Of a stretch of DNA of 32,803 nucleotides, positions 1-25,975 are shown one piece after another. This DNA is from Chrysochromulina tobinii. Taxonomy: Eukaryota. The position numbers and the translations under genes were made by a program. The notes under the pieces are model-generated. The model made no database searches. It saw nothing but the letters and a program-made list of their open reading frames with translations, and had not been told where the DNA came from. The stretch is from assembly GCA_001275005.1 (NCBI GenBank), contig JWZX01002788.1:1-32803 (forward strand), written 5' to 3'. The first letter of the stretch is position 1; each line of letters begins with the position of its first letter.

Positions 1-1890
1 GTGCAGTGACAGCTTTGACAGGCTGGCTTGCATCTCCATCTCCGCCGCGTGCTTGCGACGCAGCTTCTTGCTCTCCTGCTTGCGCTTCTTGTGCAAGCGC
101 TCGCGCATCGCCCTCGCCTCTGCCAACACACCCTCGCTCGCGAGTGCGTGGTGCTCCTCGATCGCGCCGACCAGGCCCTCGTACTGCGCGGCCGCCATGG
201 CCACACGAAGCGCCTCGTTGGCGGCGGCAGAAGGAGCAGGACCCACGACGTCCTCGTCGTCGCCAGCCGCCGCCAACACATCGTTGTCCGGCTCGGCGCT
301 GCCACTCGCGGCCGCTGACGCACTCGCTGCCGGCGCTCTCGCCTCGCTCGCCCCTTTCTTCTTGGCCTTGGCTTTCTGGCTCGCGTTCGTCTTCTGCGCG
401 CGCTGCTTGTGCACGCCCTCCGCCTCCTCCTGGGCCAGCAGAGCCGCAGCGGCAAGCTCGGCTGCCCGCTCGGCTGCCGCACGCTCCGCACTCGACACTG
501 GAGCGACCGCAGCGATCGTCGCAGGTGCGCGGCCCCTGCTGCGCAGGAATCTTGCGATGGCGGTATGGCCTCGGGCCTCTGCGACATCGAGGGCTGTGCC
601 GAAAGCAGATTGCAAGTCGGCGCGTGCGCCAGCATGCACGAGCAGCATGACTATGTCGCCGTGGCCTTCGTAGCAGGCGGTGTGCAGAGGCGTGGCGCCG
701 TAGCTTTTTGCCTGGTCGATGGCGGCGTGGGCGGCGAGCAGCAGCTGCGCGCAGTCGCCGTCGCCTTTGACGCAGGCGGCGTGCAGAGGCGTGGAGCCGT
801 AGATGTCGGCCTGGTCGACGACGGCGTGGGCGGCGAGCAGCAGCCGCACGCAGCCGCCGCTGCCTTCGCCGCAGGCGGCGATCAGAGATGTGGTGCCTCT
901 GCTGGTTGCCTGGTCGACAGCGGCGTGGGCGGCGAGCAGCAGCTGCACGCAGTCGCCGTGGCCGCTGTCGCTCGCGGCGATCAGAGGCGTGGCGCCGTCG
1001 CTGTCTGCCTGGTCGACGGTGGCGTGGGCGGCGAGCAGCAGCTGCACGCAGCCACCGTGGCCTTCGATGCTGGCGGCGCGCAGAGGCGTGACGCCGTTGC
1101 GGTCTGCCAGGTCGACGACGGCGTGGGCGGCGAGCAGCAGCCGCACGCAGCCGCCGTGGCCTTTGTCGCAGGCGACGAGCAGAGGCGTGCGGCCGTCGCT
1201 GTCTGCCTGGTCGACGGTGGCGTGGGCGGCGAGCAGCAGCTGCACGCAGCCACCGTGGCCTTCGATGCTGGCGGCGAGCAGAGGCGTGACGCCGTTGCGG
1301 TCTGCCTGGTTAACGGCGGCGTTGGCGGCGAGCAGCAGCTGCACGCAGCCACCGTGGCCTTCGATGCTGGCGGCGCGCAGAGGCGTGACGCCGTTGCGGT
1401 CTGCCTGGTTAACGGCGGCGTGGGCGGCGAGCAGCAGCCGCACGCAGCCGCCGCAACCTTTGACGCAGGCGACGATCAGAGGCGTGTTGCCGTCGCTGTC
1501 TGCTGCCTGGTCGACAGCGGCGTGGGCGGCGAGCAGCAGCTGCACGCAGCCTCCGTTGTCTTTGCAGCAGGCGGCGTACAGAGGCGTGACGCCGTTGCTG
1601 GCGGCCTGGTCGACGGCGGCGTGGGAGGCGAGCAGCAGCTGCACGCAGTTGCCGTGGCCTTTGTCGCAGGCGGCGATCAGAGGCGTGACGCCTCTGCTGG
1701 TTGCCTGGTCGACGGCGGCGTGGGCGGCGAGCAGCAGCTTCGTGCACTTAGGGTGACCAGTCTCACATGCAGCATACAGGCAGGCGCCGAGGTGGTCCGC
1801 TTCTGTCACGCTGTCGATGAGGCCCACGGCATTCGCCTCTTCGCCGCGATGGAGCGCGTCGACGATCGCGTGCATGGCCGAGCGTCGCAT
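1..1890 (-). CDS. Ankyrin-repeat protein (about 12 ANK repeats + Ala/Lys-rich linker), 3'-truncated by the window edge; paralog of the ANK-kinase at 22561-25975
   Basis: ATG at 1890 (MRRSAMHAIVDALHRGEEANAVGLIDSV...), open frame running to base 1. 33-aa repeats such as AAVDQADRNGVTPLRAASIEGHGGCVQLLLAAH. Bases 10-660 align almost base-for-base with 24085-24735. Confidence 0.88.
   Translation of the reverse strand, partial: MRRSAMHAIVDALHRGEEANAVGLIDSVTEADHLGACLYAACETGHPKCTKLLLAAHAAVDQATSRGVTPLIAACDKGHGNCVQLLLASHAAVDQAASNGVTPLYAACCKDNGGCVQLLLAAHAAVDQAADSDGNTPLIVACVKGCGGCVRLLLAAHAAVNQADRNGVTPLRAASIEGHGGCVQLLLAANAAVNQADRNGVTPLLAASIEGHGGCVQLLLAAHATVDQADSDGRTPLLVACDKGHGGCVRLLLAAHAVVDLADRNGVTPLRAASIEGHGGCVQLLLAAHATVDQADSDGATPLIAASDSGHGDCVQLLLAAHAAVDQATSRGTTSLIAACGEGSGGCVRLLLAAHAVVDQADIYGSTPLHAACVKGDGDCAQLLLAAHAAIDQAKSYGATPLHTACYEGHGDIVMLLVHAGARADLQSAFGTALDVAEARGHTAIARFLRSRGRAPATIAAVAPVSSAERAAAERAAELAAAALLAQEEAEGVHKQRAQKTNASQKAKAKKKGASEARAPAASASAAASGSAEPDNDVLAAAGDDEDVVGPAPSAAANEALRVAMAAAQYEGLVGAIEEHHALASEGVLAEARAMRERLHKKRKQESKKLRRKHAAEMEMQASLSKLSLH
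661..1745 (-). repeat. Tandem 99-bp ankyrin-coding repeat array (about 11 units; one unit has an extra codon near 1500)
   Basis: Core ggcggcgagcagcagc recurs every 99 bp. Confidence 0.9.
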
Positions 1891-2183
1891 ATCAACCTCG
1901 AAGTTTAAGTTACCGTTTTTTGGCATGCTGAACTGCATGCCAAACGTGTGAGTGCATCGTGATCGTTAAAACGACAGTCGCGTCAACCGGTGCTACCGGG
2001 TACGGCACTGTTACTGCTCGCTGTGTGAGAAAGAACCCTTCAAACTATTCACATTTCAATATGTGCCACATGTACTCGAGAGAACCAACTGAGTGAGTAC
2101 CAACGCGGGGAGTACACGAGAGGAATATTCATCCCCGTGCTGCACCTCGTGCCATGTCGCGCCGCACACGTGTGCTGGCACCC

Positions 2184-3046
2184 TTAGCGCGGCGGTGTGT
2201 CAAGTGCCATACGTTGCAGAGCTAGCCGGGCCTGTGCGTTCTCAAAGCCGCTCAGGATCTGCTGCAGATGCGCCGGCAGCGGCCCCGGCGGCATCGTGCT
2301 CGTGCCGATCAATTCCAGAAGCGACGGCGCCGACGCGCGGCTGCCGAGGTTGAAGCCCATATTGTACCACGCTGCTTCAGGAGTTCCTCGCATGGTTCCG
2401 AATCGGACACTCGCTGACGAAACTGACGACCACACAGAGGTGGGCCCCCGAGCATCGTGAAGCGCCGTGTCTGGCGAGCGCACTAGGTACGGCGAGAGAT
2501 GATGAAGCAGGAACGGCGTCTCGCCCCCTTGGGTCTGCTTGGTCGTCTTCTGCTCATCATGCGCACGGTCCCCGAGCCAAGTGACCGGGTCGGTGGTCGT
2601 CGCGGGCGAGGGCGGCGTCGTGGGCGGGACTGGGCGCTCCGCCTTGGCCTGGTACGCTGCGATCTGCGCCTTGCGCTCGGCACAGCGCTCGGCCCTCTCC
2701 CGCTTCATGGCCATCTGCGCCATCTGGGCCTTGACCTGATCCCTCGCGTCTTTGCCACGTGCGGCAGCCTGCAGCTTGGTCGCGGCAGCTGCCTCGGACG
2801 TGAAGGCGGAGATGACGTGGGTCTTCGTGCGCACGTGCTCGGCGGCATTCTGCGCCCTTCGCGCCAGTTTCGCCTTCTTGCGCGCAGGTGGAGGGATACT
2901 TCCACCTTGGCATGCTGATGACCCTCCCTCATTGCATGCTGATGACCCTCGCAGGTGAGGGATACTTCCGCCTTGGTCGGGTGGTGCGTTGCCACCCCTC
3001 GCTGCCCGCACCGCGCTACATGCCGCGCCGCCCGTGCCACCGTCAC

Positions 3047-3101
<55 letters not shown>

Positions 3102-5837
3102 TCCCCCTCCTCCTCCCCTTCCTCCCCCATCGCCCCCGGGGTCCTCCTCAGTTGCCGACGTGTCGTGATCGAGGTTGGGGAAGAGGAGGCGGCAGAACTC
3201 ATGGTAGTCGACCTCCCCCGTCTCGTCCTCGTCAAAGAGGGCAAAGAGCTGCCGCAGCTTGGCCACTGGGATCTTGAGCTTCATATTCTTCATCGCACGC
3301 TTGAACTCACCCCAATCGAGCTGCCCGTCGCCGCTCGTGTCAAACTCCTGGAAGATGCGGTGCAGCTGGCTCATGGTAAGCCCGCGCTCTTCGAGCATGA
3401 CGGCCATCCGCATCTGCATCTCCACCAGTTCCTTGCGCTCCCAGGCCGATCGGAACGCCTCGCCGATGACCGTGATCGGCATCGTCGTGAAGAGCAACCC
3501 GCACACGATCGCACAGGCGAAGACGACTCGCTGGGCGGGTCCCTGAAGCCCATGGTGGCCGTCATAGCCGAGGGTAGCCACGATCCTGTGCACGTCGAGA
3601 GGGAGATCGAGCTAAGATCGAGAGGGAGATCGAGAGGGAGATCGAGCCAGGATCGTGCTCAGAGGGAGATCGAGCACGGATCGAGAGGGAGATCGAGCCA
3701 GGATCGTGCTCAGAGGGAGATCGAGCACGTCGAGAGGGAGATCGAGCACGAGCAGGCATCGGTGTGTAGTCGGTGTGGGAGACAGACGCACACGAAAGAG
3801 CCTCTAGGGCCGCATGCATGAGTGTTTGGCTGGTGTTTGGCACACACGCACACACTCACTCAAGAGCACAACAACCAGGGAGAAGCGTTCGCGTACTCAG
3901 TCGAGGCACTCAGTCACAGCGCACCAGAAGATCATCCACATGGCTTCGAACCCATCGCCGAGCGGCTCGACCAGTCCGTCATCGAGGTCAGCGCCTCCGC
4001 TCTGGTTGCGCCGAAGCCACAGACCATACTGACCATCGGCTCTCTCGAGGATGATCAACGCGCCGGAGAGGAGAAGCGTGACGATGAGCATCGCAAAGCC
4101 GGGCACCTGATGAGGGAGGCAATCAGAGGTCATCAGAGGTCATCCGAGGTCAACAAAGAGCACCTGATGAGGTGGCAATCAAGCAAGCCATCATCCAGAG
4201 ACGTCAACAGTGAGGCCACAGCACAGAGGAAATACATCTCTGAGGCCACATCGAAGAGGACACTCAGAGGACAATCAGCGGACACCCCACGAGTATATCA
4301 TCACATCGAAGAGGGCAATCAGAGGGCAATCAGAGGACAATCAGCGGACACTCCACGAGTATACCATGAGGGCGCGATACGAGTTCTCAAGGGCGATGAG
4401 CAGCACACGCCAGCCCGAGTAGTGCTTCAGCAGCTTGAAGATGCGCGCGAGACGCAGCAGCTCGAGCAGCTCGAGCACTAGGAGCCCGTCGCTGCTGCGG
4501 CTGCCCCCGGCCATAAAAATGTCGATGTAGAAGGGGATGATGGTCGCCACGTCGATCCAGTACATGGGGTTGAACAGGAGCATGTTGCGCAGGTCGAGCG
4601 TCGCGACGTATGTGCGCAGGGCGAGCTCGATGGTGAAGATGATGCCGCACGCCACCTCGAGAGCATACAGCGACTCCGAGCGTTCAAAACTGGGGACCGT
4701 GGTCAGAAAGAAGCTGAAGACGCTCACGATGATGGTCGCAATAATAAAGATTCCAAGGGCCGAAGCCGCATACGATGATTTGGGAGCGTTGAGCGCCTTC
4801 CGAAGCCGTTGGCGAGGGTCGAGAGTCTTGGAGAGGCGCTGCTTGGTTCCAGCGGCCTCAGCCACGCTCCAGCGCTTTATGACCGAGGAGTCTCCTCCGG
4901 CCTTTTCCTTCGCCTTCGCCATGCAGGTGCAGAACTCGTCAAAGTCGATCTGGCCGGAGTCGTCGGAATCAACCTCCCTGACGATCGCGTCGAGCTCCTT
5001 CGCGCTCAGGGTCTGGCCGAGGGTGTTCATGACGTCGCCAAGCTCTTTGGTCGAGATGGTGCCGCTCCCGTCCTTGTCGAAGGCCGCAAAGATCTTCATG
5101 TACTCCTGCTTGTACTGGTCCATGGACGGCTCCTTCACACCCGCGCGGCGGCCGTTGGCTCCCGCCCAGGTCAGGGGCACCCAGAGCCTCCTTGGTGCCC
5201 CACGAGAGAGCAGCGGACTCACAGTGAGCCCTCGAGGAATCGTAGGTGGGCGCAGCGCCGTTCGTGTCCGATGGCCATCGGAGGCACACTCGGCGGCGGG
5301 AGGTTGGGATTCCTCATGAGCCCATGTACGTTCCTTGGACGTGGCACCTTCGCGCGCTTTGAGACCCCCTCTGGCAACACGTTTGCGATCCCAAAAATGG
5401 GAGCCCAGAGGTGCCATCAGCGTGAGCCTTCGGCGCATCGGAGGTGGAGGTACAGATGGAGACGCTGCCGGGCGGGAGAGAAGGCCATCTGACGCGCGCT
5501 CGTGTGGCGGCGTGTCTTCGAGGTGGAGCCTGATCTCATCCGCCCGGAACCACAAACTCTGGCCGTTTGCGAAGCGCACCTGGTACGGGCGAATCCTGGG
5601 CTCATTCAGGTCGTCCGTGATGAGCACGCCCGTCTGCCCGACGAACAGCCGAGTGGACTGGTTCAACGGGTCCCCTTTGGCCTTGACCACAATGACCGTG
5701 TCACCCACCCTCGCCCGTCGACGTCGTGACGACACCTTTGGTGGTGTCGACAGCAATGCGGCCGCCTTCAACTTTCCCCAATGTGGACCTGCCTTCGGAG
5801 CTGCGTTCGGTTGTGCCCCTTCAGCCCGGAAATTCAT
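2184..5837 (-). CDS. Voltage-gated K+ channel-family (6TM) protein with N- and C-terminal EF-hand pairs and an IQ motif. Exons about 5837-4365, 4106-3925, 3585-2184; 5' structure uncertain
   Basis: Calmodulin-like lobe FDKDGSGTISTKELGDVMNTLG...VDSDDSGQIDFDEF. S4 LRLARIFKLLKH. Pore FEAMWMIFW|IVATLGYDG. S6 CGLLFTTMPITVIGEAF. EF-hands DTSGDGQLDWGEF and DEDETGEVDYHEF. IQ-like LQAAARGKDAR. GT-AG introns 4364-4107 and 3924-3586 join the frames. Confidence 0.85.
3047..3100. repeat. (GCC)n trinucleotide run encoding poly-Gly in the channel C-terminus
   Basis: Direct inspection. Confidence 0.9.
3586..3924 (-). other. Spliceosomal intron with gagggagatcgag repeats
   Basis: TG|GTGCGC ... cacAG|G restores W-IVATLGYDG. 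Confidence 0.8.
4107..4364 (-). other. Spliceosomal intron, repeat-rich, with internal copies of its own donor and acceptor
   Basis: ATG|GTATAC ... ctgattgcctccctcatcAG|GTG. Decoy acceptor near 4161, decoy donor near 4281-4300. Confidence 0.8.
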
Positions 5838-6236
5838 CTGCACCCAGCTGCACCCAGGCGGGCACCGTCTGTTCGTCCACGAAGGCGGCGAGAGATTTAT
5901 TTTCAATTACCAGAGGGTTGCATGCAGCGACACGAAGAGTTTTGTCCTGTCTCCGGACGGGTCCAGTTCATGCCAGTTGAGACTTGTACAAATTGGGCCC
6001 GACTCCTGGTGCAAGTTCGATATGACACACTTTTCAGGGTCTCGTTTTTGTTACATATCTTCGTTCATGACCTGGCCGCCTGGGACATCCCACGAAAACG
6101 CGAATCACAACTTCTCAACAATTTTTCTCCGCGGATCCTCGGAGGTGTCGCTTAGCCTAAAAGTTGGGATCAGGAGGGCGAGGGCCTCTCGCCTCTCGGC
6201 TGCAAACAACGCGCGACCGGACCCCACAACGGACCC

Positions 6237-7994: not shown

Positions 7995-9605
7995 ATGTCA
8001 CTCTCGCGGCACTCGCTGTTGCCGCTGCTCGCGCTCGTGCTCGTGCCGCTCGCGTCTCCGTTTGGACGGCTGCGTACGAGCGACCGGCTCGAGCAGGCCG
8101 CGAAGCTCCTCGGCGACGCCGCCGAGCCTCCGTCACCTCCAGGCGAGAGCGGCGCGACATTCGTCCCGCTGCCCACGGCTGAGGAGCTTGCCAAGTGCAT
8201 GGACAAGAACCCGGAATGCGCGCGGTGGGCCAAGGGCGGCGAGTGCGAGGCGAATCCCGAATTCATGCTCCACGAGTGCCCGGCGGGCTGCCAGCAGTGC
8301 CAGTCCGAAAACTGCCGCGACAAGAATGCGGTGTGCGCGAGCTGGGCGGCGAGCGGCGAATGCAAGGCCAACCACGCGTTCATGCTCAAAGAATGCCCGT
8401 TCGCGTGCAAGGTGTGCCACATCAACTTCAAGGAGGCGTGCCGGCGCGATCCGGCTATGGCGCCCGCTGCGGTGCCGGGCACCATAGACGCGACCATCGA
8501 GCGCGCGCTGCGCGAGTTTCCAGCGTTCCGGCCGCGCGTGCTGCACCGCGAGCCGTGGGTGATCGAATTCCAATCGTTCCTGACGGAGACCGAGGCGGAC
8601 CACATTATACGCACGGGCGGGCACAATTTCGAGCGCAGCCTCGCAGGCGACGGCGTCACACCCGTCCGTACCAGCTCTACCAGCTGGTGCAATGTGGAAT
8701 CGTGTCTGTCGGATGGTCTGTTCCAGGTGATGGCCGCTGATGGCCGCTGATGGCCGCTGATTGCCTCTGGTTGCCTCTGGTTGCCTCTGGTTGCCACTGA
8801 GCCTCGTCCGTGTCGGTCTGATGCAGTCCGTGCGCGAGCGCATCGTGAACGTTACACGCGTGCCGTGGGAGAACGCCGAGCACTTGCAGGTACTCCGCTA
8901 TCATCCGGGCCAGTTCTACCGAGAGCACCACGACCAGAACTCGCCGCACTATTCAACGTGGGGACCACGGCTGTTCACCTTCTTCATGTACAGCGCTGAG
9001 GACCCCTGATTGTTCGCTGAGGACCCCTGATTGTTCGCTGAGGACCACTGATTCTTCGCTGACTGCACCCTGATTGCGTCCCTCATCAGGTACCTGTCGG
9101 ATGTGGAGGAGGGCGGCGAGACGCGCTTCACGAAGCTCAACCTGACAGTCGCGCCCAAGAAGGGTTCGGCGATCTTGTGGCCCTCCGGTGATGAGCACCG
9201 ATAGCCATTGAGTACCCTGAGTAGCCACCGAGTACCCACTGTGGGCTCGGCGATCCTGTGGGCCACCCCAGCATGCAAGTGCTCACCCCGGCGCCCTCCG
9301 AGTACCCCCTGTGGGCTCGGCGATCCTGTGGGCCACCCCAGCATGCAAGTGCTCACCCCGGCGCCCTCCTGCGCCCAGTGTTCTCGCGCGATCCATGGAC
9401 AACTGATGAAGGCACGTACCACGAAGCCGTCACCGTGGCCAAGGGCGTCAAGTACGCGGCCAACTTTTGGATCCACATGTTCGAGTTCCAGCAGGCGCTC
9501 ATGCGCGGCTGCGACAATGAGGACTACTGGCAGGATATGCTGCTTGACGACGAGAGGTTCGGCAAGGGGATGCTCGCTAAGCCGAACCCATCTAAAGGGT
9601 ACTAA
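7995..9605 (+). CDS. Secreted prolyl 4-hydroxylase (2OG-Fe(II) dioxygenase) with two N-terminal ShKT domains. Exons 7995-8726, 8827-8987, 9090-9187, 9379-9605
   Basis: Signal peptide. CMDKNPECARWAKGGECEANPEFMLHECPAGCQQC and a second ShKT. RTSST, EHLQVLRY, HHD, YLSDVEEGGETRF, HEA, KYAANFWIH. All three introns are GT-AG and keep frame. Confidence 0.92.
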
Positions 9606-9810
9606 AGCGTAGCTCACCCATTTAGGCGCAGGACACCAGGACTACTGTACGTGAGGTCGGTAGCGGAGCGGATCGTCGATGAAAGAGTTTGCCACCTGTG
9701 CCCACGCGATACGCGGGACGACAGGTGGAGCACAACAAAATAAATTAGCCGCGCCAGCGGCCAGCGCCCTCGAAGTCATCCGTCGTCAGCCGAAGTCGGA
9801 AGTCCATCCG

Positions 9811-10035
9811 ATGACCGATCGTTACGATACGGCGCAGGCTCACGCCTTGATGGGGCGGGAGGGTTTCTCAACCCGCATACCCCGCCCGGCCGTTCAACCC
9901 GACGCATGGTTTCAACACTCACGTCTCGTCTGGGACGTCAGGTACGCAGGTAGTTACCAGTTACCAAACATAGTGCGCCCTGCGCCGGAGGCGTCGCTAA
10001 ACGGAAAGCTTTACCCTCCACAGTACAACGCCTGA
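9811..10035 (+). CDS. Possible small hypothetical protein (74 aa)
   Basis: ATG-initiated ORF in an intergenic gap with protein-like composition; no recognisable motif. Confidence 0.25.
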   Translation: MTDRYDTAQAHALMGREGFSTRIPRPAVQPDAWFQHSRLVWDVRYAGSYQLPNIVRPAPEASLNGKLYPPQYNA

Positions 10036-10131
10036 GAGCACCCTCGCCCACGCCAAGAGCACACTTCCCACGTGGCCGAGTGCGTTCAAAGGGGCTCGAG
10101 GCATCAAAGCTTCCATCCGAAAGCTCTAGCT

Positions 10132-14595: not shown

Positions 14596-14929
14596 GGCGG
14601 GCGGAAAACGGCGCCGGGTCCGGTATGCGTTTGGGTAAGGTGTACAGCTGTACAGCGTAGATGGTTGACTGCCAGTCTGGTGCATTGTGCATTCGATTTC
14701 GTGCAAACTTACGAACGCGCCTCTATTGCATTAGATCCGATCCGGCCTACGACCGTGTCGCGACCGGTCTGACCTCGCTGACATGACACGACGCCTCTTA
14801 CACAGCACTCTCGCCCTCCCCCGCCTCCACCCAGTCAGAGAACACCCAGATGCACTCGAATGCGGGGCTCATGTACGTCAGACAAAAAGGGGTTTGAGGG
14901 TCCGTTCGGAGTAGATGCCCACGACAACG

Positions 14930-17701
14930 CTACGTCCGGCGGAAAAAGTCCGGGTTGCGCGCCATGTTGCGCCTCTTCTCGGCCGTCTCAAAGTCCTCGT
15001 CACGGATGCCGCTATCACGCTCGATGAGCTTCGCGGCATCGTCGGCCTGCTGCTTGCCGTACTTGAAGGCTTTGCGCTGATTGTTCGGGTCGAGAGCATC
15101 TTCGGTTGCGCCGGAGGCTGCGGCGCGCGGGTTGAGCGCCGCGAGAAGCTCGTGGTACGCAATCTCGCCCGTGCCGTCGGCGTCGATCGTGTTCCAGAGT
15201 TCTTGTACATTCTCGCCGACTGTGATCCCCATGCCAGCCATCGCTTTGCTGAACTCCTTGTACGTGATCGTGCCACTCCGGTCTGTGTCCCACTCCTTGA
15301 ACGTCTCGAGGACGCGGGAAGCCTTGTGGCACACGACGTCGCGCAGCATGGCGAGGCCGTCCAGCTGGGAGCCGCCGAGTCCGAGTTGGCTAAGCTTGCT
15401 CTTCTTCGCCTTACTCGCCAGGCTCGCAGGCGCCTTGACTGGTGGTGCATGCCGACCCACAGCTGGTACGTTGCTAGGAGGTGGGACGAAGGCCTTTGTT
15501 CCCTTCTCCTTGTGCCTCCCCGTCGGCTTGAGCGCCTTCTCGAGCTCCTTGTAGTCGATAGAGCCGTTGCCGTCCGTGTCGAACTGGGCAAACATCTCAT
15601 GCATCTCCTCGCTACTCGCCTTGACGCCCATCGTCGTCACGGCCGCCGCGAACTCTTTGTAGCTGACCGTACCACAGTCGTCCACATCCCATGAACGGAA
15701 GACGTCGATGACACGCGTCGTTGCCATCGATTGGAGCGCCTCGCGTAGGCCGTCCCGGAAGCTGGACACGCCAGCCTGCCCCATGTGCTCGGCCAGGCCA
15801 GGCAAGTGGGCGACTGGCCGCTGTTTCGGCTTGAACTTGGCGTTCGGGTCGACTGCATCGTTTCGCAGCCCTTGCTGGAAGACTCGTTCGGCCACCTCGG
15901 ACTTGACGCGCACATCCTCGTTGTAGCCGACGTCGCGGATGCCGTTCCGTTCGATGTCTCTTCCGGCGCTCTCTGCCTCGTGGTGACCGTACTTCCACCG
16001 ATGCTGCTTATTGTTCGGATCGAGCGCCTCGAGGGACGCCTTGCCGGGAGCTGCCCGGTGTGGGTCGACCGCGGCAAGTAGCTCGTGATACGCTATCTCG
16101 CCGGTACCGTCCGCGTCGAGTGCTTCCCACAGGGTGTGGATCTCATTCGGATCGGTCACGCCGAGCGCGCCCATGGCGCCTCGGAACTCTTCGATGTCGA
16201 CCGTGAGCGAATGGTCTTTGTCCCACTCGTTGAACGTGTCGATGACGCGCTGTGCCTTGTGCAGCAGCATCTCCTTGACACGCTTTCGCATCTCGATGGC
16301 TCGCAGGCTGGCAACCTGCCATATCAGATGCAATCAGCGTTAACCAGAATTCATCAGCGTTTATCAGTGGGATAAGAGGCCATCAGTGGTCATCAGTGGC
16401 CATCAGTGGCCATCAGACGGCATCAGAGGCCATCAGCGGCCATCAGACGGCATCAGTGGCCGTCAGTGGCTATCACCTGCTCATCAGAAGGCAGAGAGTG
16501 CGCTACATGCGCCGCATGCGCCGCGTGCTTTGGCAATCAGTGGCAATCGGTGGCCATCAGAGGCCATCACCTGTTCATCAGCAGGCAGAGAGGTCGCCGC
16601 TTGCGCCGCTCGCTTCGTGGTTCCTGCATGCATGGTGTAACCGCCCTGCATCGGCACCGGCGAGACGCGAGATGGACCCTGCGGTGCGCGGCGCGGCGGC
16701 GGCTGGGGTGCTTCCTCGCGCCGACGCGGCTGCAAGTGGGTCGTGGAGGTCACCGACTGGCGTTCTTCCTCAGCGTGTGAGCGAGGGGTGAGGGCGGCGA
16801 TGGTGTTCGCAGCGGAAGGGGCGGCGAGGGCGGTGGCTTGGCGACCCGGCTCATCTCTTGACGCCTGCACATCGTGCCTAGGCGCGTCGTACCTTGCCTT
16901 GCCGTCTGACGGTATCGACGCGGGAGCGGTGGGCGGCGGCGGCGGCGCGGTCAAACGACCGCTCTTGACAGCCCCTTGGACGGCCTCATTCTCGTCGTCG
17001 TCGACGGGCTCGTTCATTGATGCTCTGCTGGCCGCCGAGGGCGCAAGATCGACCGCCGATGCGGAGGTGGGTATCGGAGTCTTGTTCGAGGCTGATGCCG
17101 ACGACGACGCTCCACTGGCGCCGCTGCCGGTGTAGGCTGGTGCAGCAGCTGGTCGTGCGGCTAGAGCCGCGGTTCCGACGACACTCCATGCATAGCGGAG
17201 CTCATTGAGGACGCGTGTGGAGCCCTGCAGGTCACGGAGGAGGACGTCCAGCTCGTCCTGCGTCAGTTTGCCGTCCTGGTTGCCATCGTACACGGACATG
17301 AGGTACGCAGTGCGCAGCGGCGGGCAAGGGTCACCCTGCATGATGACCTTTTCGGCCACGATGGAAGGTGGGTAGAGCTTCTTCTTAGCGAGATGGTGAG
17401 CGCTCATGATCTTCGACGGGGCGGATACATCCACGGCCGCGATCGATGTCGGCCGCCGAGTTAACGCAGGCATCGGCAGCCCAGTAAGGAGCGTGGTAGT
17501 GCGCGGCGACTGCATCTGCATGAGACGGGTCTCGAAATGCTCAATGTCCGTTTTGGCGGAAGGAGGACGGAAGCTCTTCACCGCGGGCATCGCCGGCCGG
17601 AAAGGCGGCAGCGCAGACGCCATGCCGTCCAACTCCGCGTCGGTGCGCACGGCACGGAAGGTGGGCGCCGTCCCTAAAGGCGGCGATCGCATTGCGACCA
17701 T
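14930..17701 (-). CDS. Multi-EF-hand calcium-binding protein (about 838 aa). Exons 17701-16571, 16315-14930
   Basis: Seven EF loops (DGNQDGKLTQDE, DKDHSLTVDIEE, DADGTGEIAYHE x2, DVDDCGTVSYKE, DTDGNGSIDYKE, DTDRSGTITYKE). Phase-0 GT-AG intron 16570-16316. Confidence 0.85.
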
Positions 17702-17775
17702 TGCTTGCGAACTTCTTTGTCCGGATATGTAACGGAAAATGAAGCGCACAGTCCCGGGCGAGCTGAAGTTGGAGC

Positions 17776-17828
17776 AAGCAAGCAAGCAAGCAAGCAAGTG
17801 TTGTTTCGACTAACTAGCTTGCTTGCTT
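17776..17828. mobile_element. 53-bp MITE-like insertion with (AAGC)n/(GCTT)n terminal inverted repeats and 8-bp TSD gttggagc
   Basis: gttggagc at 17768-17775 and 17829-17836 flank aagcaagcaagc...gcttgcttgctt. Confidence 0.6.
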
Positions 17829-18506
17829 GTTGGAGCTGCGTGCGCAAAGGGGGTGATCCAAGATTGATGAAGACGCGAGATCGATGGTCAGATCGATGGA
17901 GAGATGGAGGCGAGCGGCGGCGGCGGCTAGCCATCCGGGTTGGTCAGCGAGGGAGGCGAGCAGCGCAAGGGAATGGCGCAAGGGCTGCGAAGGTGCGAAC
18001 GAGGGCGGTTGAACAGGTACCATGTAGTGACTGGATGGCGCGGACGGCGCGGCGACGAGCTTCCCGCGGGGGGGGGCATCAAGGTTGCCCGATCAAGGTC
18101 AAAGCCCTATCAACTTAGTTCCCAGAGTGGGGGGTATAATCCTTGGGCAGCACGAGCGGAACGATTCGATCCTTCGATTGGGATTGCCCCCCGTCCGCTC
18201 AAAAACTTCGCGAATCAAGTTAAAGCGCCGGCCATTGACGCGCTGCTAGAGAATGCCATTATTACAGCAAGTTGGAGAGATGGAGACGGTGGAGTGTGCT
18301 ACATAATTCCTCGTGTCGTCCGTTTAGAACGGGCGACCTGCGCGGCGTCCGGTTTTGGCGGCGGGCTCTTGGTCTTGCCGGGTCTGCCGCACAGCACGCC
18401 TGATCGCCATGCCGTGGTCCGGCCCTGCACGCCCCTCGCACTATACTCTCACAGATACAAGGCATTGCTACTTCGTGGCCTCGCCGCATGCAGATAGCAT
18501 TCATTC

Positions 18507-20417
18507 TCATTCCTTGCCCGTGGCCGCGCTGCTCGCCATCTCCGCCTTCGCCGCCTCGTCAGCTAAGAGCAGGGCATGATTCCTCGTCGCCTCGCTTGTC
18601 AAGAGCGCGCCGGCCACCGTGCCGACATAGTACCGCAGCTCGCCCAGGCCCCACTGATCGTCATTATTCCGACCGCTGAACCTGTGACCCGCAGCCGGCT
18701 GGAACCCCGGGTAGGGCATGAGCTTTGAGTGCATCAACTGGATAAAGGGCTGCGCGAAGCTCGCCCCTTGGCATGCACGCGGGCCTGCGCCGAATATTGG
18801 CCATTTCTCCTTGCTGCTCGCAAAGTCGGGCGTGAACATGATGACCTGCGTGTTCGGGTGCACGGCGAGGCTGCCGTCCTTGAGCCGCGTGCCCGCGGGC
18901 CCGACGAACCTTTCCAAAATAGGAAACGGGTGGTTGCGGCGGATCGCGTCCTCGGGGCTCAGGCTCGGGTTTGCATGCATCGCAACGGCGATGTCGCCCA
19001 TGTTGATGGCGGGCGAGAGCAGAAAGGGCTGCATGAGTAGCGAGTAGTAGCGTGGCAACGCCCACTTCTCCTCGTGCAGCGACCACAACTCACTGTCTCT
19101 CAAGAGCGTCAGAAGAGCTTCCACAGCAGCAGCCTTGACCTCAGCACTCGCACGGCCTCGCACTGCAATCTCCATTCGCCACTCCCATGAGCCATCGACG
19201 AGCCGTTGCACGAGTGCCGCCTCGATCGCCTCGCCGTCGGCGCCCTTGACCACGCAGCTGTCCCTCTCCGCCCCTCCGGCCCCCTTGCCAAATAAGTAAC
19301 GACAGAAGGAGAGCACGGTGAGGCGCGCGATCGCCTCGGCATCGATCGGCGTGCCGGTCGCGGACGCGTGCACCAAGAGCGCATCCACGCGCCGCTTGGC
19401 CACGTCCGCAAACGTCGAGGCGGGCGGCAGCGCGGTGAGCAGCTTGTGGAAGTCCGCAATCATGAGTGCATGCAGAGGTCCATCAATGGACTCGAGTGAG
19501 AGGACCGGAGCCCATGCGGGTGAGGCAATGAGGCGCTCCAAGGCGTGGCCTTTGAGTGAGGAGCCTCGGAGGACGGCCATGGCGACCGTGACGTCGCTCA
19601 CCACCTGGATGCGCGTGCCACTCAGCAGCCCGAGCAGATGGAACGCGAGGCGCCGGGAGGCCTCCATGAGCTCGCCTGATCTCGCGAGGATGATGGCGAG
19701 ATTTGAAGCTCGGTAGCCCAGGCAGATGACGAGATCGTGCTGCACGGGCGGCAGCTCCTGCGAGGTGAGCTGGAGCCCGAAGAGCACGAGCAGGGACAGG
19801 ACCTCAAACGAGTACCGGTGGCGGAAGAAGAGCCATTGCTCCAGATGTGCATCTCCGAGCTCGCAGATCAACTGGACTGTCGCGAGCACGGGCAGAATGC
19901 GCGTGTACGGCTGGAAGGCCACCGGCGCGTTGGCCGCCTCCAACTGCCACGCCGCGACAGCAACCAGGCCAGTGAAGAGGAGGACCAGGCGCCACTCGAG
20001 CGTGTCCAGCTTCCCGGCTATGAAGTCCCCCGAGAATGTCTTGAGCATGTAGATGAGAATGGCGTAGTCGAGCCTCAGATCAAACACGATCAGCGCCGCC
20101 GCACCAATGAGCATGCAGAGGTTGAAAGTGAAGCTTCGGATCTGTACATTGACCGCCGCACCGATGCTGCCAATGTAGAGGTGCCCAATCCATCTGCCCG
20201 ACCGTAAGTACGGCAGCAGGCCAAGTGCGGCTTGCGACGCTGGCGAGATGGCACTCGAGGCCCGAGGAGCAAGCTCAAATGCGATGAGGCACACGAGCAC
20301 CAGTCGTGGCAGACCCCAGCCATACTTGGCCGCACGGTCTGAGCTGAAGTAAGGCGACGAAGCTACCGCTCCGGACACCACGGACGCGGTGGTCACCGAC
20401 GTCGGCGACGAAGACAT
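18507..20417 (-). CDS. Multi-pass membrane protein fused to a compact, divergent cytochrome P450-like domain
   Basis: Several hydrophobic segments in the N-terminal half. Heme-ligand motif FGAGPRACQG. K-helix-like EDAIRRNHPFP. I-helix-like FLLSPAINMGD. Confidence 0.72.
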   Translation of the reverse strand: MSSSPTSVTTASVVSGAVASSPYFSSDRAAKYGWGLPRLVLVCLIAFELAPRASSAISPASQAALGLLPYLRSGRWIGHLYIGSIGAAVNVQIRSFTFNLCMLIGAAALIVFDLRLDYAILIYMLKTFSGDFIAGKLDTLEWRLVLLFTGLVAVAAWQLEAANAPVAFQPYTRILPVLATVQLICELGDAHLEQWLFFRHRYSFEVLSLLVLFGLQLTSQELPPVQHDLVICLGYRASNLAIILARSGELMEASRRLAFHLLGLLSGTRIQVVSDVTVAMAVLRGSSLKGHALERLIASPAWAPVLSLESIDGPLHALMIADFHKLLTALPPASTFADVAKRRVDALLVHASATGTPIDAEAIARLTVLSFCRYLFGKGAGGAERDSCVVKGADGEAIEAALVQRLVDGSWEWRMEIAVRGRASAEVKAAAVEALLTLLRDSELWSLHEEKWALPRYYSLLMQPFLLSPAINMGDIAVAMHANPSLSPEDAIRRNHPFPILERFVGPAGTRLKDGSLAVHPNTQVIMFTPDFASSKEKWPIFGAGPRACQGASFAQPFIQLMHSKLMPYPGFQPAAGHRFSGRNNDDQWGLGELRYYVGTVAGALLTSEATRNHALLLADEAAKAEMASSAATGKE

Positions 20418-21082
20418 GATTTTTGCTTCGAGATTTCCTGAGTTTTCAATCTCCGTTTCATGGAGATCCGAATGTACAGGACATGTGCTCGCGTTCGTCT
20501 TCGACCTGTGGCATCCAAGGGATGGTCGCAGAAAGCGAAACTCGTGAGACACACCTGTTCAAGAACACCGGGGGAGCCGCCGTCGTGGCGCAAAGCCGCA
20601 CGCATGAGACAAGCACACCTGACCCGCGCACCATGCGCACGCCAACCAACATCAAAAACCGAAACGAAGCTACCGGTACCGGTACGGTTCTGTGAGGTTC
20701 GATTGTATTACGTCTGTGAGATCCAAGCACCCATCCGTTGGAATTCACACCGCAGATCGCCATTACGGAAGCATGCGGTGGCGGTTCGCAATCTTCCTCG
20801 CACACACAGCTGTGAGCATCGCAATCAGCACGGGCGGAGGCCTCTTTCACTTGCAACCATCAAATCCTTCTCTCTGGACCGCACGCATATCTCAGTCGGG
20901 CAGGGGTGTAGGCCTCCGAGGTTTTCCGGTGGCTGATGACGAGAAACCCTTTAGGGCATCCAGCAGTGGCATCCAGCAGTGGCATTTAGGGTTTCTCGCT
21001 CGTCGCCGCGGCGGCCATCGCCTGGTCGCCACTGGCCCGAAATCAGCCGAACACGGCCTCGCGTCTCGCACATGCACCTCGC

Positions 21083-21914
21083 ATGGACGCCGCTGCCGTC
21101 GCAGGCAACGTCGCCATCGTCACCGGCGGATCCGGCGGCATCGGGCTCGCCGTCTGCCATCGGCTCGCGGCGCGCGGTCGCGAAGCTGGTGCTCGGCTAC
21201 GGCAGCGACGAGAAACGCGCTGCGGCGGCATGCGACGAGCTGCGTACGGCCTACCCTGGCATACGGGTCGTCAGCGTGGGCGGCGACTTGACCACAGACG
21301 CGAGCCGCACGGCGACCGTCGACTTGATCTTTGAGGCGGTCGACGCGCTTGGCGGCAACGTGTCGGCGTTTGTGCACGCGGCGGGCTACTTTGCAGCCGA
21401 CCTGCTCTCGCACCACTTTGATGGCGCGTGCGACGATTTCGCCATGTACGACGCGTACCAGTCCATCTACCCGAAAAGCTTTGTGGCCATCACGGAGAAG
21501 GCGCTGCAGCGGATGGGGCGGGGCGGCCGGATAATCGCGATCAGCAACCCCGGGTGCAACGCGATGCAGACTCCGCGCGTAGGGTACGACATGCCCGGCC
21601 AGGGCAAGGCCACCATGGAATTCGCCGTTCGCATGTACGCGATGCGCACCGCCAAGCGCGGCATCTGCGTCAACGCCGTGTCTCCGGGGTACACCGACAC
21701 CGCCGAATGGGATAAGGCGCGGCTCCAGATGGGAGGCGGCGACCTCGAAAAGGGGCGGGCGATGCTCGACGCGCGCATGCTCGTGCGCTCGCCTATCCAG
21801 CGCTGGGCAGCTCCCGACGAGATCGCCCAGACGGTTGACTTTCTGGTCGGCGAGCAGACGGGCATGATAACGGGCGCGACGATCCCCGTGGACGGCGGTC
21901 TGCACCTGACGTAA
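21083..21914 (+). CDS. Short-chain dehydrogenase/reductase, enoyl-reductase (FabI/FabL)-type, with an apparent +1 frameshift near 21179
   Basis: VAIVTGGSGGIG Rossmann motif, FVHAAG, Y-x6-K (YDMPGQGK), VNAVSPG, ITGATIPVDGG. The N-terminus and the rest are in different frames (GGT[C]GCG AAG). Confidence 0.85.
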
Positions 21915-22560
21915 TTACTGAAGTAACTGACGTAACGATCCATGTGGGGACTGCGGTCTGCACCTGACGTGAGCGAGCGGCGCCGGCGGCGGCGCGAGGC
22001 GCGCGCGTGCGTCGGTGGCGCGCCCTCGGAGCCGATCGGATGCTTTAGCATAATAGCAACCGGGACGCGTGCGATGCTCACCCTCGATCTCGTCTCGCGG
22101 CGACGCGGCGGGGTGCCCCTAGTCCCCTACCACCCGGTCTGCCGCCGCGGAGCGCGGAGGGCTCAGTGTACAGTGATATCGCTCTCGATTCTTCATCGCT
22201 TTGTAACCACTGCAAGTGGACGAGCCGAGGGTGGAGACTTCTCTGATCTCTCCGTGTTTTCCTCCACATGGTTTTCCTCGTAGAAATTTTGAAGAAATAT
22301 CTCCACCGACGAGACGGACCATGCGAGAGCCTCCCGTCGGGGGCGCGGCGCACGATACCGCATACCCATCTAGCACCCGTCTTTCACACTTCACACTAGA
22401 CACTTGTCTCGCGACACCGCACCTCTGACTCAACTCATTCTATTCTCGCCCGTCGCCGAGCGTTACGTATCGTATGCCTTAGTTTTTTCGTACAATCTAA
22501 TATCTATTCGGAAGTAATATTCGACTAGGATGCCGCACATCCACATCGCCGCCATGATAC

Positions 22561-25500
22561 TCAACGTGATGAAGTGCCCTCGAGCGCCTCAATCGCCGTC
22601 TTCACCGCGGACACTAGCTGCGACGCCTCCGCCTCGCCCCGTGGGCCATCGCGGCGCCAACGATCGTCGTCGAGGTGGCGCGCGGCATTTGCCCAAATGC
22701 GGAGCGAGTGCAGCCGATCTTTCAGGTCGGCCCGCATGCTACACTCGCGATGCCAATAGTTGATGCGCTCCTCAAAGCCCTCGGGCGCCTTCGCCGCCCT
22801 CGCTGCATAGATGGCGTCGAGTCGAGACATGACGCTGCTGAACGCGAGCAGCATATTGTCCTTGATGCCCTTGTGCGCATCGGAGCCCTTGCGCATCTCA
22901 CGCACCTGCTTCGAGAGCGGCGTGGGCACGTAGCCAGCCGCCGTGCTCGCGGGCGGCTCCGAGCTTGAAAGCACCGAACCGTCGAGCGCGCCGCGGCCTG
23001 TGCCTCTGCTCCCATCCTCATCAGCCAGGCTTGAGAGCGTCGCCAGTGCAGCGGACACCTTGAGCCTCTTCCGCACACTCGTGCCATGGCACAGACCCGA
23101 AGCAGCAGACCGGACAAGGTCCTTGAATTTCGTTGCCACATGTGGCGGCCAGCCTGCAGTAGCGTCAGCAAGCTGTACTGCATCGATGTCCTCAAAGTCC
23201 TTATCGAAGTCCTCCTCGCACCTAGTGATGATGCTCAGGGGCGAGCGGCCGGTAAGCGCCACGAGCAGCGTGATGCCCAGCGCCCAACCATCCGTCATAG
23301 CTGAGTACGCGCCGCCCTCGACAACGCTCGGGTCCAGATAGCCGCGGGTCAGGTAGAGCGCATTCGACGCGCTCTTCATCTTCGACGCCTCGGTCCCGGC
23401 GTCCATCTTGGCGAAGCCCGTGTCCGCGAGGTAGGCGTTGAGCTCGTCGTCGAGCAGGATGTTCTCGGGCTTGAAGTCGCGATGCACGACGGCACCCTTG
23501 CCGCCAGGCACTCGCGTGTGCAGGTAGAGCAGCGCGTCGGTCGCCTGGCGTAGGATGCGCAGGCGCTGGTGCCACATCAGAGGGCTCAGCGACGCACCGA
23601 GGCCGAGGCGGCGCAGGTGCTCGGAGTCGGCCTCTTTCGGCCACAGCCGATCGGCGAGGCTGCCGCCGCGCATCAGCGGGAAGACGAGGCACGGCGGCGC
23701 CCCGTGCTCCAGACAGTAGCCGAGCAGCGGCAGCACGTGCGGGTGGCTGCACTGCTGCAGCACACTCACCTCGCGCTGCAGGTCGGCGAGATCGTGCACG
23801 CCCGACTTGGCGCGCTTGACGGCGACGGGCTTGTGGCGCAACCAGAGCGGCAGCGCCGCGGGCCGCAGCGACGACAGCGCATCCGCGGTGTAGACGTTGC
23901 CGTAGCCGCCGCTGCCGATGAGCCTCTGCTCTCCAAAGCCGTCCGTCGCCGCCGCAAGCTCGGCGAGCGTGAGGGCGACGGCCGCAGGCGGCGCCGAGGG
24001 TGCCTCCGGGGCCTCCGATGCAGGCGCCGCTTCTGCGGATGCTGAGCCTGCGGCAGGCGGCGACTGTGTGACCTCGAGCAGCGACAGCTTCGACAGGCTG
24101 GATTGCATATCCATCTCCGTCGCGTGCTTGCGACGCAGCTTCTGGCTCTCCTGCTTGCGTTTCTTGTGCAAGCGCTCGCGCATCGCCCTCGCCTCCGCCA
24201 ACACGCCCTCGCTCGCGAGTGCGTGGTGCTCCATGATCGCACCGACCAGGACCTCGTACTGCGCGGCCACCATGGCCACACGAAGCGCCTCGTCGGCGGC
24301 GGCAGAAGGAGCCGGACCCACGACGCCCTCGTCGTCGCCAGCCGCCGCCAACACCTCGTTGTCCGCCTCGGCGCTGCCACTCGCGACCGCTGACGCACTC
24401 GCTGCCGGCGCTCTCGCCTCGCTCGCCCCTTTCTTCTTGGCCTTGGCTTTCTGGCTCGCGTTCGTCTTCTGCGCGCGCTGCTTGTGCGCGCCCTCCGCCT
24501 CCTCCTCGGCCAGCAGAGCCGCAGCGGCAAGCTCGGCTGCCCGCTCGGCTGCCGCACGCTCCGCACTCGACACCGGAGCGACCGCAGCGATCGTCGCAGG
24601 TGCGCGGCGCCGGCTGCGCAGGAATCTTGCGATGATCGTGTGGCCTCCAGCCTCTGCGACATCGAGGGCTGTGCCCGAAGCGCATCGCAAGTCGGTGCGT
24701 GCACCAGCATGCACGAGCAGCTTGACTATGTCGCCGTGGCCTTGGTTGCAGGCGGCGTGCAGAGGCGTGGCGCCCTTGCGGTCTGCCTGGTTGACACTGG
24801 CGTTGGCGGTGAGCAGCATTTGCGCGCAGTCGCCGTGGCCTTTGTTGCAGGCGGCGAGCAGGGGCGTGAAGCCGTCGCAGTCCGCATGGTCGATGGCGGC
24901 GTGGGCGGCGAGCAGCAGCTGCACGCAGTCGCCGTGGCCTCTGTCGCTGGCGGCGAGCAGACGGCGTGTTGCCGTAGCTGGAGGCCTTGTCGACGGCGGC
25001 GTGGGCGGCGAGCAGCAGCCGCGCGCAGTCGCCGTTGCCTTTGACGCAGGCGGCGTACAGAGGCGTGCCGCCTTCGCGGTCTGCCTGGTCGACGACGGCG
25101 TGGGCGTCGAGCAGCAGCCGCACGCAGCCGCCGTCGCAATTGTCGCAGGCGGCGATCAGAGGCGTGGTGCCGTTGCTGTCTGCCTGGTCGACGGTGGCGT
25201 GGGCGGCGAGCAGCAGCCGCACGCAGTCGCCGTGGCTTTTGCGGCAGGCGGCGTGCAGAGGCGTGACGCCCTTGCGGTCTGCCTGGTCGACGGCGGCGTG
25301 GGTGGCGAGCAGCAGCCGCACGCTGTCGCCGTGGCCTTTGTCGCAGGCGGCGTACAGAGGCGTGACGCCGTAGCTGGAGGCCTGGTCGACGGCGGCGTGG
25401 GCGGCGAGCAGCAGCTGCACGCAGTCGCCGTGGCCTTTGTAGCAGGCGGCGTACAGAGGCGTGGCGCCGTCGCTGTCTGCCTGGTCGACGGCGGCGCGGG

Positions 25501-25975
25501 CGGCAAGCAGCAGCTGCGCGCAGTCCCCGTCGCCTTTCATGCAGGCGGCATGCAGAGGTGTGATGCTCCATTTATCAGCCTGGTCGACGGCGGCGTGGGC
25601 GGCGAGCAGCAGCTGCACGCAGTCGCCGTTGCCTTTGTTGCAGGCGGAGATCAGAGGCGTGGTGCCGTTGCGTTCTGCCTGGTCGACGGCGGCGTGGGCG
25701 GCGAGAAGCAGCTGCACGCAGTCGCCGTCGCCTTTGTCGCAGGCGGCGATCAGAGGCGTGACGCCGTTGCTCTCTGCATGGTCGACGGCGGCGTGGGCGG
25801 CGAGAAGCAGCCTCGCGCACTTAGGGTGACCAGTCTCACATGCACTCAGAAGGCTTTTCCCGAGGTCGGCCGCTCCTTTGACGCTGTCGATGAGGCCCAC
25901 GGCCATGGCCTCGTCGCCGCGACGGAGCGCGTCGACGATCGCGTTGGCCTTGACGAGGTTGCCTGTCGCGTCCAT
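22561..25975 (-). CDS. Ankyrin-repeat (x12) + IRAK/Pelle/RLK-like protein kinase + putative HEPN/DUF4145-like C-terminal domain; apparent 1-bp insertion at 24962
   Basis: ANK repeats. LTLAELAAATDGFGEQRLIGSGGYGNVY, VAVKR, HRDFKPENILLD, ADTGFAK, GYLDP, TDGWALG. C-terminal LHSLRIWANAARH. ORFs 23222-25975 and 22561-24924 join if c24962 is removed (gagcagaCggcgtg vs consensus gagcagaggcgtg). Confidence 0.88.
24735..25820 (-). repeat. Tandem 99-bp ankyrin-coding repeat array (about 11 units)
   Basis: 99-bp periodicity of ggtcgacggcggcgtgggcggcgagcagcagc. Confidence 0.9.

What the first reader, a model, noticed from the sequence alone, without database searches (positions are those of the whole stretch)
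1..25975. Two paralogs with near-identical linkers but re-shuffled, hypervariable ankyrin arrays
Copy 1 (1-1890) and copy 2 are almost identical across the linker (offset 24075). Their arrays have the same length (1095 vs 1093 bp between anchors), yet the units differ at hairpin and helix-1 positions (DQAxxxGxTPLxAACxxG). ASIEGHGG occurs three times in copy 1 and never in copy 2, and units look like mosaics of half-repeats. These are the target-binding positions of ankyrin repeats (those randomised in DARPins). This suggests diversification by recombination or gene conversion between 99-bp units, as in variable repeat arrays of fungal NLRs.
Basis: partly seen in the sequence, partly recalled or inferred. 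Interest (0 to 1): 0.7.

Follow-up and report, generated by a model that had tools for sequence, protein, structure and literature searches.

The report
Algal RNase L-like variable ankyrin sensors
A haptophyte alga carries a dozen or more scattered genes in which an ankyrin-repeat array with a fast-changing binding face is joined by one shared linker to either a kinase plus a predicted RNA-cutting (HEPN) domain or a RING finger, a layout that likely serves as a set of intracellular recognition receptors.

Summary
Both copies have 11 ankyrin units, the linker differs at 6% of bases and the arrays at 16%. Units are not collinear, and amino-acid change exceeds silent change about fourfold on the binding face. 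Three corrections follow. (1) Copy 1 continues into a RING finger, not a kinase. (2) Copy 2 as assembled is a junction of two loci, and its frameshift is absent from an independent assembly. (3) A second junction at 20993/20994 makes the 24-kb neighbourhood doubtful. The genes belong to a dispersed Chrysochromulina family with at least 12 kinase-HEPN loci plus RING types. All 97 units from 11 loci are distinct. Units resemble their own array most, with block duplications; exchange within units is moderately supported, exchange between paralogous arrays was not found. Each locus keeps its array across assemblies and samples, so this is evolutionary diversification, not rapid shuffling. The C-terminal domain models as a HEPN fold behind an RLK/Pelle-type kinase: RNase L's domain order, likely built independently. 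Relatives in other haptophytes and unnamed samples carry ankyrin, ARM or Sel1 sensors. Defence function is inferred, not shown.

The parts
1738..1890 (-). Copy 1 start codon (1890) and N-terminal capping repeat
   Evidence: 23 of 134 bases differ from copy 2
646..1737 (-). Copy 1 ankyrin array, 11 units (ten of 99 bp, one of 102 bp); units 4, 5 and 7 differ by 2-6 bases
   Evidence: identical letter for letter in L033 and L034
1..645 (-). Copy 1 C-cap and shared helical linker; continues beyond the window into an Ala/Glu coil, an RGG stretch and a C3HC4 RING (L034:9890-12538, 883 aa)
   Evidence: (PF13920, E 3.7e-11); window bases 7, 16 and 45 differ from L033/L034
25811..25975 (-). Copy 2 start codon (25975) and N-terminal capping repeat
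   Evidence: (P0004)
24721..25810 (-). Copy 2 ankyrin array, 11 units (ten of 99 bp, one of 100 bp)
   Evidence: identical to L001 on both sides of 24962
24962..24962 (-). One extra base in unit 9 that shifts the frame; absent from L001 and P0004, likely an assembly error
23980..24720 (-). Copy 2 C-cap and shared linker; alike to copy 1 (37 of 720 bases differ between L034 and L001) up to the point where kinase and RING types part
23107..23931 (-). RLK/Pelle (IRAK)-type kinase with GxGxxG, VAVK, HRD and DTG in place of DFG
   Evidence: (PF00069, E 5.9e-29)
23730..23840 (.). 111-bp stretch in which the window switches from the L001 locus (5' side) to the L002/L003/L004 locus (3' side)
22561..22935 (-). 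C-terminal helical domain, predicted HEPN fold; motif R-x-W-[R/A]-N-x-x-[S/R]-H; stop codon at 22561-22563
20993..20994 (.). Second junction: L003 and L004 leave the window here and supply the start codon of the short-chain dehydrogenase gene that the window lacks

Best explanation
The two copies belong to a dispersed family of single-frame Chrysochromulina genes in which an ankyrin array with a fast-changing binding face sits on a shared helical linker and ends in either an RLK/Pelle-type kinase plus a predicted HEPN RNase domain or a RING finger, and they likely act as cytosolic recognition receptors. Shown: the two outputs on one linker, duplication of units inside each array, excess amino-acid change on the binding face, purifying selection on kinase and HEPN. 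Inferred: unequal crossing-over and short conversion tracts rebuild each array over evolutionary time while selection diversifies the hairpin and helix-1 residues; ligand binding would bring receptors together, the kinase would activate, and paired HEPN domains would cut RNA (growth arrest or death), while RING types would ubiquitylate the bound target. The likely targets are proteins of viruses, parasites or ingested prey.
For: 97 of 97 units from 11 loci are distinct; within-array distance 15.1 vs 16.9 between (0 of 5000 permutations), nearest neighbour in own array 43.6 of 97 vs 8.6 expected; holds for 78 internal units. Two- and three-unit block duplications in L002, L010, L018. pN at ankyrin positions 2,3,5,13,14 is 0.42 vs array pS 0.13 (ratio 2.8-3.8 over locus subsamples), 0.73 at scaffold positions; kinase 0.34, HEPN 0.27, linker 0.53; GC3 alike in array and kinase, 0.87 vs 0.85. 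At least 12 distinct 3' flanks carry kinase-HEPN genes. HEPN proteins lead both fold searches for both models (Z 8.2, rmsd 3.4-3.6, 100-104 aligned; Z 9.3, rmsd 2.9, 101 aligned); relative P0056 matches DUF4145, E 5.7e-4. One Arg lies either 5 or 1 residues before the invariant His in 168 of 168 motif matches (redundant set) and 20 of 21 distant ones. Relatives join the same linker-kinase-HEPN to ankyrin, ankyrin+ARM or Sel1 arrays.
Against: No ligand, activity or phenotype is known. Arrays do not vary much within a locus: 0-4 amino-acid differences in 39 of 39 comparisons (clusters are pre-selected at 90% identity) and none between the window and L001, L033, L034 apart from base 24962. Silent-site tests of recombination were negative (p 0.98 and 0.46); the half-unit test on internal units was not significant against codon permutation (p 0.07-0.24). 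No rare tract is shared between arrays of different loci except the terminal DIVK (20 of 20). Fold Z-scores lie in the range that helical bundles can reach by chance (notes), and the domain from the window or L001 matches no Pfam family. The window's HEPN lacks the canonical Arg of RNxxxH. Short-read assemblies disagree on 5'-3' joins in this family (L005 vs L007, L008 vs L013), so individual array-output pairings are uncertain.
Confidence: 0.55

Rival explanations
1. A family of endogenous signalling or ubiquitylation adaptors: the arrays diversify to bind different host proteins, and the HEPN fold only binds RNA or dimerises.
For: Arrays are stable within a locus across samples; most motif matches (124 of 168) lack the canonical Arg; PMC3710099 (abstract and passages) notes non-catalytic HEPN domains; RING outputs are common in housekeeping (general knowledge).
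Against: A three- to fourfold excess of amino-acid change on the face, variable unit numbers (about 2 to 13 or more), degenerate copies (L028-L030, L035) and swapped sensor types fit conflict better than stable partners; His, Asn and one Arg are kept across distant relatives.
Confidence: 0.25
2. Neutral repeat turnover: unequal crossing-over multiplies units, surface positions are merely unconstrained, and silent change looks low because of GC3 bias and homogenisation.
For: These positions vary in natural ankyrins generally (PMC4308713 passages); GC3 is 0.87; pairwise pN/pS on non-independent units is a crude measure; silent sites at the face codons are few.
Against: Silent divergence is similar in arrays (0.13) and in linker, kinase and HEPN (0.16-0.18) at the same GC3, while face pN is 0.42; relaxed constraint alone would give a ratio near 1; 17 different residues occur at position 5 and 15 at position 13 among 97 units.
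Confidence: 0.12
3. The shuffled look is an assembly artefact: reads of many paralogs were mixed inside the arrays.
For: The window is a junction in the kinase and at 20993/20994, has an extra base at 24962, and its first 45 bases drift from L033/L034; other assemblies also disagree on joins.
Against: Both arrays are reproduced letter for letter in other assemblies (L033, L034, L001), P0004 is on 10 contigs, and other arrays recur unchanged in several records. The artefacts lie in the homogeneous linker and kinase, not in the arrays.
Confidence: 0.04
4. Programmed, rapid diversification in the living cell, as in diversity-generating retroelements or somatic shuffling.
For: Variable codons are mostly NNC and include AAC, the pattern recalled for DGRs.
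Against: NNC is expected at GC3 0.87; arrays are identical between the window and other assemblies and near-identical between samples; no reverse transcriptase among 20 window ORFs scanned. Contigs drop rare variants, so low-frequency change is not excluded.
Confidence: 0.04

Closest known systems
Fungal NLRs with highly internally conserved (HIC) ANK/TPR/WD40 repeats (PMC4986451 and PMC13449251, passages read)
   Same: Repeats about 84% alike at DNA level, variation on the hairpin and inner helix, excess amino-acid change, homogenisation within a gene, interchangeable effector domains.
   Different: No NACHT or NB-ARC domain; the array is N-terminal; outputs are kinase-HEPN or RING; no repeat-number polymorphism within a locus and no exchange between paralogous arrays was seen here.
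RNase L (ankyrin, kinase fold, KEN/HEPN RNase; PMC3710099 Table 1 and passages)
   Same: Same domain order: ankyrin array, kinase fold, HEPN-type domain with an Arg/Asn/His motif.
   Different: Kinase is RLK/Pelle-type with catalytic residues present (RNase L's is a pseudokinase, recalled); a 240-residue linker intervenes; a multi-gene family with diversifying arrays rather than one gene binding 2-5A (recalled); nearest folds are prokaryotic HEPN proteins.
RLK/Pelle (IRAK) cytoplasmic kinases such as PBL2, BIK1, Pto, IRAK1/4
   Same: Best structural relatives of the kinase by sequence (E 4e-24 to 2e-14); no membrane segment or ectodomain seen in the sequence.
   Different: Fused in one chain to a variable repeat array and a HEPN-like domain; DFG reads DTG and the APE-equivalent Glu is Ser.
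Animal HEPN families fused to ankyrin, TPR, RING, NACHT (DZIP3/hRUL138, Cxorf38; PMC3710099 Table 1)
   Same: HEPN in lineage-specific expansions with repeat sensors, proposed to act in defence.
   Different: No match to those Pfam families here; kinase-linked; named relatives are haptophytes only.
Ankyrin-RING E3 ligases (XBAT/XB3 type; recalled, not tested)
   Same: Copy 1 and P0060 have ankyrin array plus C3HC4 RING.
   Different: Share array type and linker with kinase-HEPN paralogs at about 95% DNA identity.

Membership tests
Fungal-type HIC NLR | Repeats of 80% or higher identity | tested here: met
   mean 16 of 99 bases differ; TRF 84% matches
Fungal-type HIC NLR | Diversifying selection on the concave face | tested here: met
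   pairwise pN 0.42 vs pS 0.13; no codon model run
Fungal-type HIC NLR | NACHT or NB-ARC ATPase | tested here: not met
   no such Pfam match in P0001, P0004 (precomputed) or L034 protein
Fungal-type HIC NLR | Repeat-number polymorphism among alleles | tested here: inconclusive
   none in 39 of 39 comparisons, but clusters are pre-selected at 90% identity and all data are short-read; L024 vs L031 collinear
Fungal-type HIC NLR | Repeat exchange between paralogs | tested here: inconclusive
   only the terminal DIVK tract shared; common two-state sites are near linkage equilibrium across loci
RNase L | Order ankyrin, kinase fold, HEPN-type domain | tested here: met
RNase L | Ire1/RNase L-type (pseudo)kinase | tested here: not met
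   the 60 best of 210 PDB matches shown are plant RLK/RLCK, IRAK and a few CaMK-type kinases, none Ire1 or RNase L; Lys, HRD and Mg-binding Asp present
RNase L | KEN subfamily of HEPN | tested here: inconclusive
   KEN not listed among 50 rows; no Pfam match
RNase L | Activation by 2-5A made by OAS | not testable with these tools
   no genome held; no binding assay
HEPN RNase | HEPN helical fold | tested here: met
   pLDDT 88 and 87; HEPN proteins rank first in 4 of 4 searches, Z 8.2-9.3, modest for a helical bundle; DUF4145 E 5.7e-4 for P0056
HEPN RNase | Rx4-6H motif with polar residue after R | tested here: inconclusive
   met in the L001/P0004 state (R-N-A-A-S-H); the window's 3' locus has A-N-A-A-R-H; 44 vs 124 of 168 matches
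HEPN RNase | RNase activity | not testable with these tools
   needs assay
RLK/Pelle (IRAK) kinases | Kinase closest to RLK/Pelle | tested here: met
   similarity ranking only; no tree with outgroups
Diversity-generating retroelement | Reverse transcriptase and invariant template repeat nearby, variants within a clone | tested here: not met
   none; arrays identical across assemblies

The most novel reading that the evidence does not exclude
Haptophyte algae independently built an RNase L-like innate immune system: single-chain receptors in which a self-diversifying repeat array (ankyrin, ARM or Sel1) detects viral or bacterial proteins directly and switches on a kinase-gated HEPN RNase, with RING paralogs on the same linker as a degradative arm, and an active-site Arg that toggles between two helix positions to set activity or specificity.
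Probability: 0.3. Interest if true: 0.85.

Novelty: new variant of a known kind. Interest (0 to 1): 0.58.

Why it matters
Haptophytes are major primary producers whose blooms are cut down by large DNA viruses (general knowledge; PMC4090681 and PMC5371795 seen as listings only), and I found no description of variable recognition receptors in them (searches; the species' genome paper PMC4580454 has 0 occurrences of ankyrin, IRAK or HEPN in its main text; supplements not read). This family gives concrete candidates with a testable output: an RNase domain with a known catalytic His. It also extends the diversity regime of fungal NLR repeats to receptors with no ATPase, and shows RNase L's domain order likely arising a second time.

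Tried and rejected
No whole genome is held and the loci's records could not be searched, so family size is a lower bound and the join of window 11780-20993 to its neighbours is untested. HEPN homodimer prediction gave no verdict (score 0.01, alignment not used). ESM Atlas gave no hit at 0.9 for the HEPN domain and none for the linker. The profile search was dominated by the kinase, so it does not give the range of the HEPN domain alone. KEN domains were not listed in the fold searches, which does not exclude kinship. PHI-like incompatibility test not significant (p about 0.8). The strong half-unit signal on all 97 units (r -0.001 vs 0.32) shrank once first and last units were dropped (0.10-0.17 vs 0.20-0.22). 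Silent-only linkage tests negative, with few variants. Mosaic-pair counts not significant. Rows dropped before the unit counts: L005 (2 units, truncated and of doubtful join), one indel-shifted unit of L018, and units that the anchor pattern missed, including the 102-bp unit of copy 1 (one search found 100 units, 97 used). No poly-A tail or shared terminal repeat was seen by eye at gene ends, so the dispersal mechanism is open. The tree is the quick tree only. RNA run X12 covers family-like pieces with 0-35 other letters; this is weak for expression and not specific to these copies.
Full report
Setting. The window is GC-rich eukaryotic DNA. A homolog search names its own gene model as Chrysochromulina tobinii, on a contig of 32,803 bases (P0003). 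No whole genome is held. PMC4580454 (passages) suggests the species is haploid, so variants within a clonal culture are paralogs.

1. The observation. Both copies lie on the minus strand. At offset 24075 identity is 92-99% per 100 bases over window 1-600; 39 of 645 bases differ across C-cap and linker, pS 0.089, pN 0.051. Each array has 11 units; ASIEGHGG occurs three times in copy 1 and not in copy 2. Collinear units differ at 16.2 of 99 bases, non-collinear ones at 16.5 (p=0.32); only unit 1 has its best match in the same position. At ankyrin positions 2,3,5,10,13, the high-entropy set of PMC4308713 (passages), pN is 0.45 for collinear pairs against an array-wide pS of 0.098; scaffold positions give 0.09. 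Position 33, randomised in designed libraries, is nearly fixed here, and position 9 is highly variable. The N-cap is as diverged as the array (pS 0.16, pN 0.18).

2. What the window gets wrong. A scan of metagenome contigs gave 40 loci. L034 matches window 11779-3 with 5 differences, and L001 matches 32803-23730 with 3. Copy 1 continues, in L034, past the shared linker into an Ala/Glu coil, an RGG stretch and a C3HC4 RING (883 aa); L033 agrees as far as it goes. P0060 is another ankyrin-linker-RING record, and RING-type loose ends occur in two aquatic metagenomes. Copy 2's extra base at 24962 is absent from L001; the intact 1138-aa protein P0004 is on 10 contigs. From 23729 onward L001 departs from the window, while L002, L003 and L004 match it exactly from 23840 through the 3' flank but have another array (8 units) and another 5' flank. 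Copy 2 is therefore a junction of two loci within a 111-bp identical stretch. At 20993/20994 L003 and L004 leave the window again and supply the start codon of the dehydrogenase gene that the window lacks. Misassembly is the simplest reading; a true rearrangement in one clone is not excluded. Other short-read assemblies also disagree on joins (L005 vs L007, L008 vs L013). The arrays themselves are reproduced letter for letter.

3. The family. 35 of 40 loci carry a family frame by my motif scan. Their 3' flanks fall into 16 groups; at least 12 carry kinase-HEPN genes in assemblies that share identical loci. Single contigs in the kinase and RING parts have about ten times the depth of unique flanks in run X1 (377 and 462 vs about 40), a rough sign of collapsed copies. 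Genes are single open frames with unrelated flanks. Named relatives of kinase plus C-terminal domain are from Chrysochromulina, Emiliania and Calcidiscus. Unnamed relatives put ankyrin, ankyrin+ARM, Sel1 or a cold-shock domain in front of the same module.

4. How the arrays evolve. Of 100 units extracted, 97 from 11 loci were used. All are distinct. Units are closer within than between arrays, and nearest neighbours lie in the own array five times as often as expected. Blocks of two or three units are duplicated in L002, L010 and L018; copy 1 units 4 and 7 differ only in four adjacent scaffold codons. Face pN is 0.42 against pS 0.13, while linker, kinase and HEPN have pN/pS of 0.53, 0.34 and 0.27 at similar pS and GC3. 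These are pairwise counts on related units, not a codon model. Recombination inside units: in 78 internal units r-squared falls with distance (p 0.008 and 0.005) and left-right correlation (0.10-0.17) is below clonal simulation (0.37-0.41, p at most 0.005). Against this: not significant versus codon permutation, silent sites alone negative, PHI-like test negative, and no rare tract shared between loci except the terminal one. Within a locus arrays are stable: 0-4 residues differ in 39 of 39 comparisons (biased by 90% clustering), L024 and L031 are collinear at 97.8%, and runs X2 and X5 hold copy 1's flanks and exact N-cap pieces, X5 also an exact 73-base unit piece at single-copy depth. At copy 2's 5' flank the main contig of X2 and X5 keeps the neighbour gene but only short islands of 25919-26165, a hint of a different allele.

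5. The outputs. The kinase is closest to plant RLK/RLCK and IRAK kinases and keeps its catalytic residues. The last 124 residues model confidently as a helical bundle, and HEPN proteins lead all four fold searches, with modest scores; relative P0056 matches DUF4145, a HEPN family in PMC3710099. Arg, Trp, Asn and His of the motif are invariant in 36 aligned sequences. The motif has two states, R-N-x-x-x-H and x-N-x-x-R-H; exactly one Arg is present in 168 of 168 matches and 20 of 21 distant ones, the last having Lys. The two positions are one helical turn apart (inference from spacing), and the state changes at least six times on a quick tree, although conversion or chimeras can inflate this. 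I read it as a compensatory swap that keeps a working site; an active/inactive pair is the alternative.

6. Mechanism. Shown: two outputs on one linker, intra-array duplication, excess change on the face, conserved outputs. Inferred: unequal crossing-over and conversion renew the arrays; ligand binding would cluster the receptors; the kinase would switch on paired HEPN domains that cut RNA, as RNase L does (PMC3710099 passages; activation details recalled); RING types would tag the ligand for degradation. Confidence: about 0.8 for the evolutionary part, about 0.5 for defence, 0.55 overall.

7. Comparison and verdict. It works like the HIC repeat domains of fungal NLRs (PMC4986451, PMC13449251; passages and one section read) but is not an NLR, and it has RNase L's domain order but not its kinase. 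Six literature searches found no description of the family; the library is incomplete and supplements were not read. Earlier notes of this scan report similar ankyrin-kinase and ankyrin-HEPN-kinase genes in other protists (unchecked), which makes the theme recurrent rather than unique. Verdict: real, a new variant of a known kind, interest 0.58.

Noticed in passing
window 13537-14592 (+): A third, unrelated ankyrin array of about six 99-bp units (PIH..A..GHLAVVQWLHEQG) behind a short N-terminal helical segment; units are 78% alike with variation again at hairpin and helix 1.
   Followed up: partly
window 20941-20993: At the second junction two TTTAGGG motifs flank a 13-bp tandem repeat; TTTAGGG is a telomere-type motif (recalled). 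Possibly a contig end joined in error.
   Followed up: partly
window 21178-21179 and 27537: Further single-base insertions in the window relative to L003/L004 and L001; the first falls in the dehydrogenase gene.
   Followed up: partly
L028-L030 and L035: A degenerate kinase-type copy with a short broken frame, present in several assemblies: gene death in the family.
   Followed up: partly
proteins P0049 and P0198: About 16 highly similar Sel1 repeats on the same linker-kinase-HEPN module: a second repeat type that may diversify the same way.
   Followed up: no
proteins P0115, P0122 (cluster 8) and P0010 vs P0093: The same array is found with either HEPN motif state: conversion of the 3' end between paralogs, or assembly chimeras.
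   Followed up: partly
window 2184-5906 (-): Ion-channel-like gene with EF hands directly upstream of copy 1, split over two long frames.
   Followed up: no
window 8728-16569 and 29328-29453: Many 10-bp-period tandem repeats (ATCAGTGGCC-like) interrupting coding frames, apparently inside introns.
   Followed up: no
window 21948-22060: A 111-bp segment is skipped in contigs of runs X2, X5 and X12 but not X1: an indel between populations downstream of copy 2.
   Followed up: no
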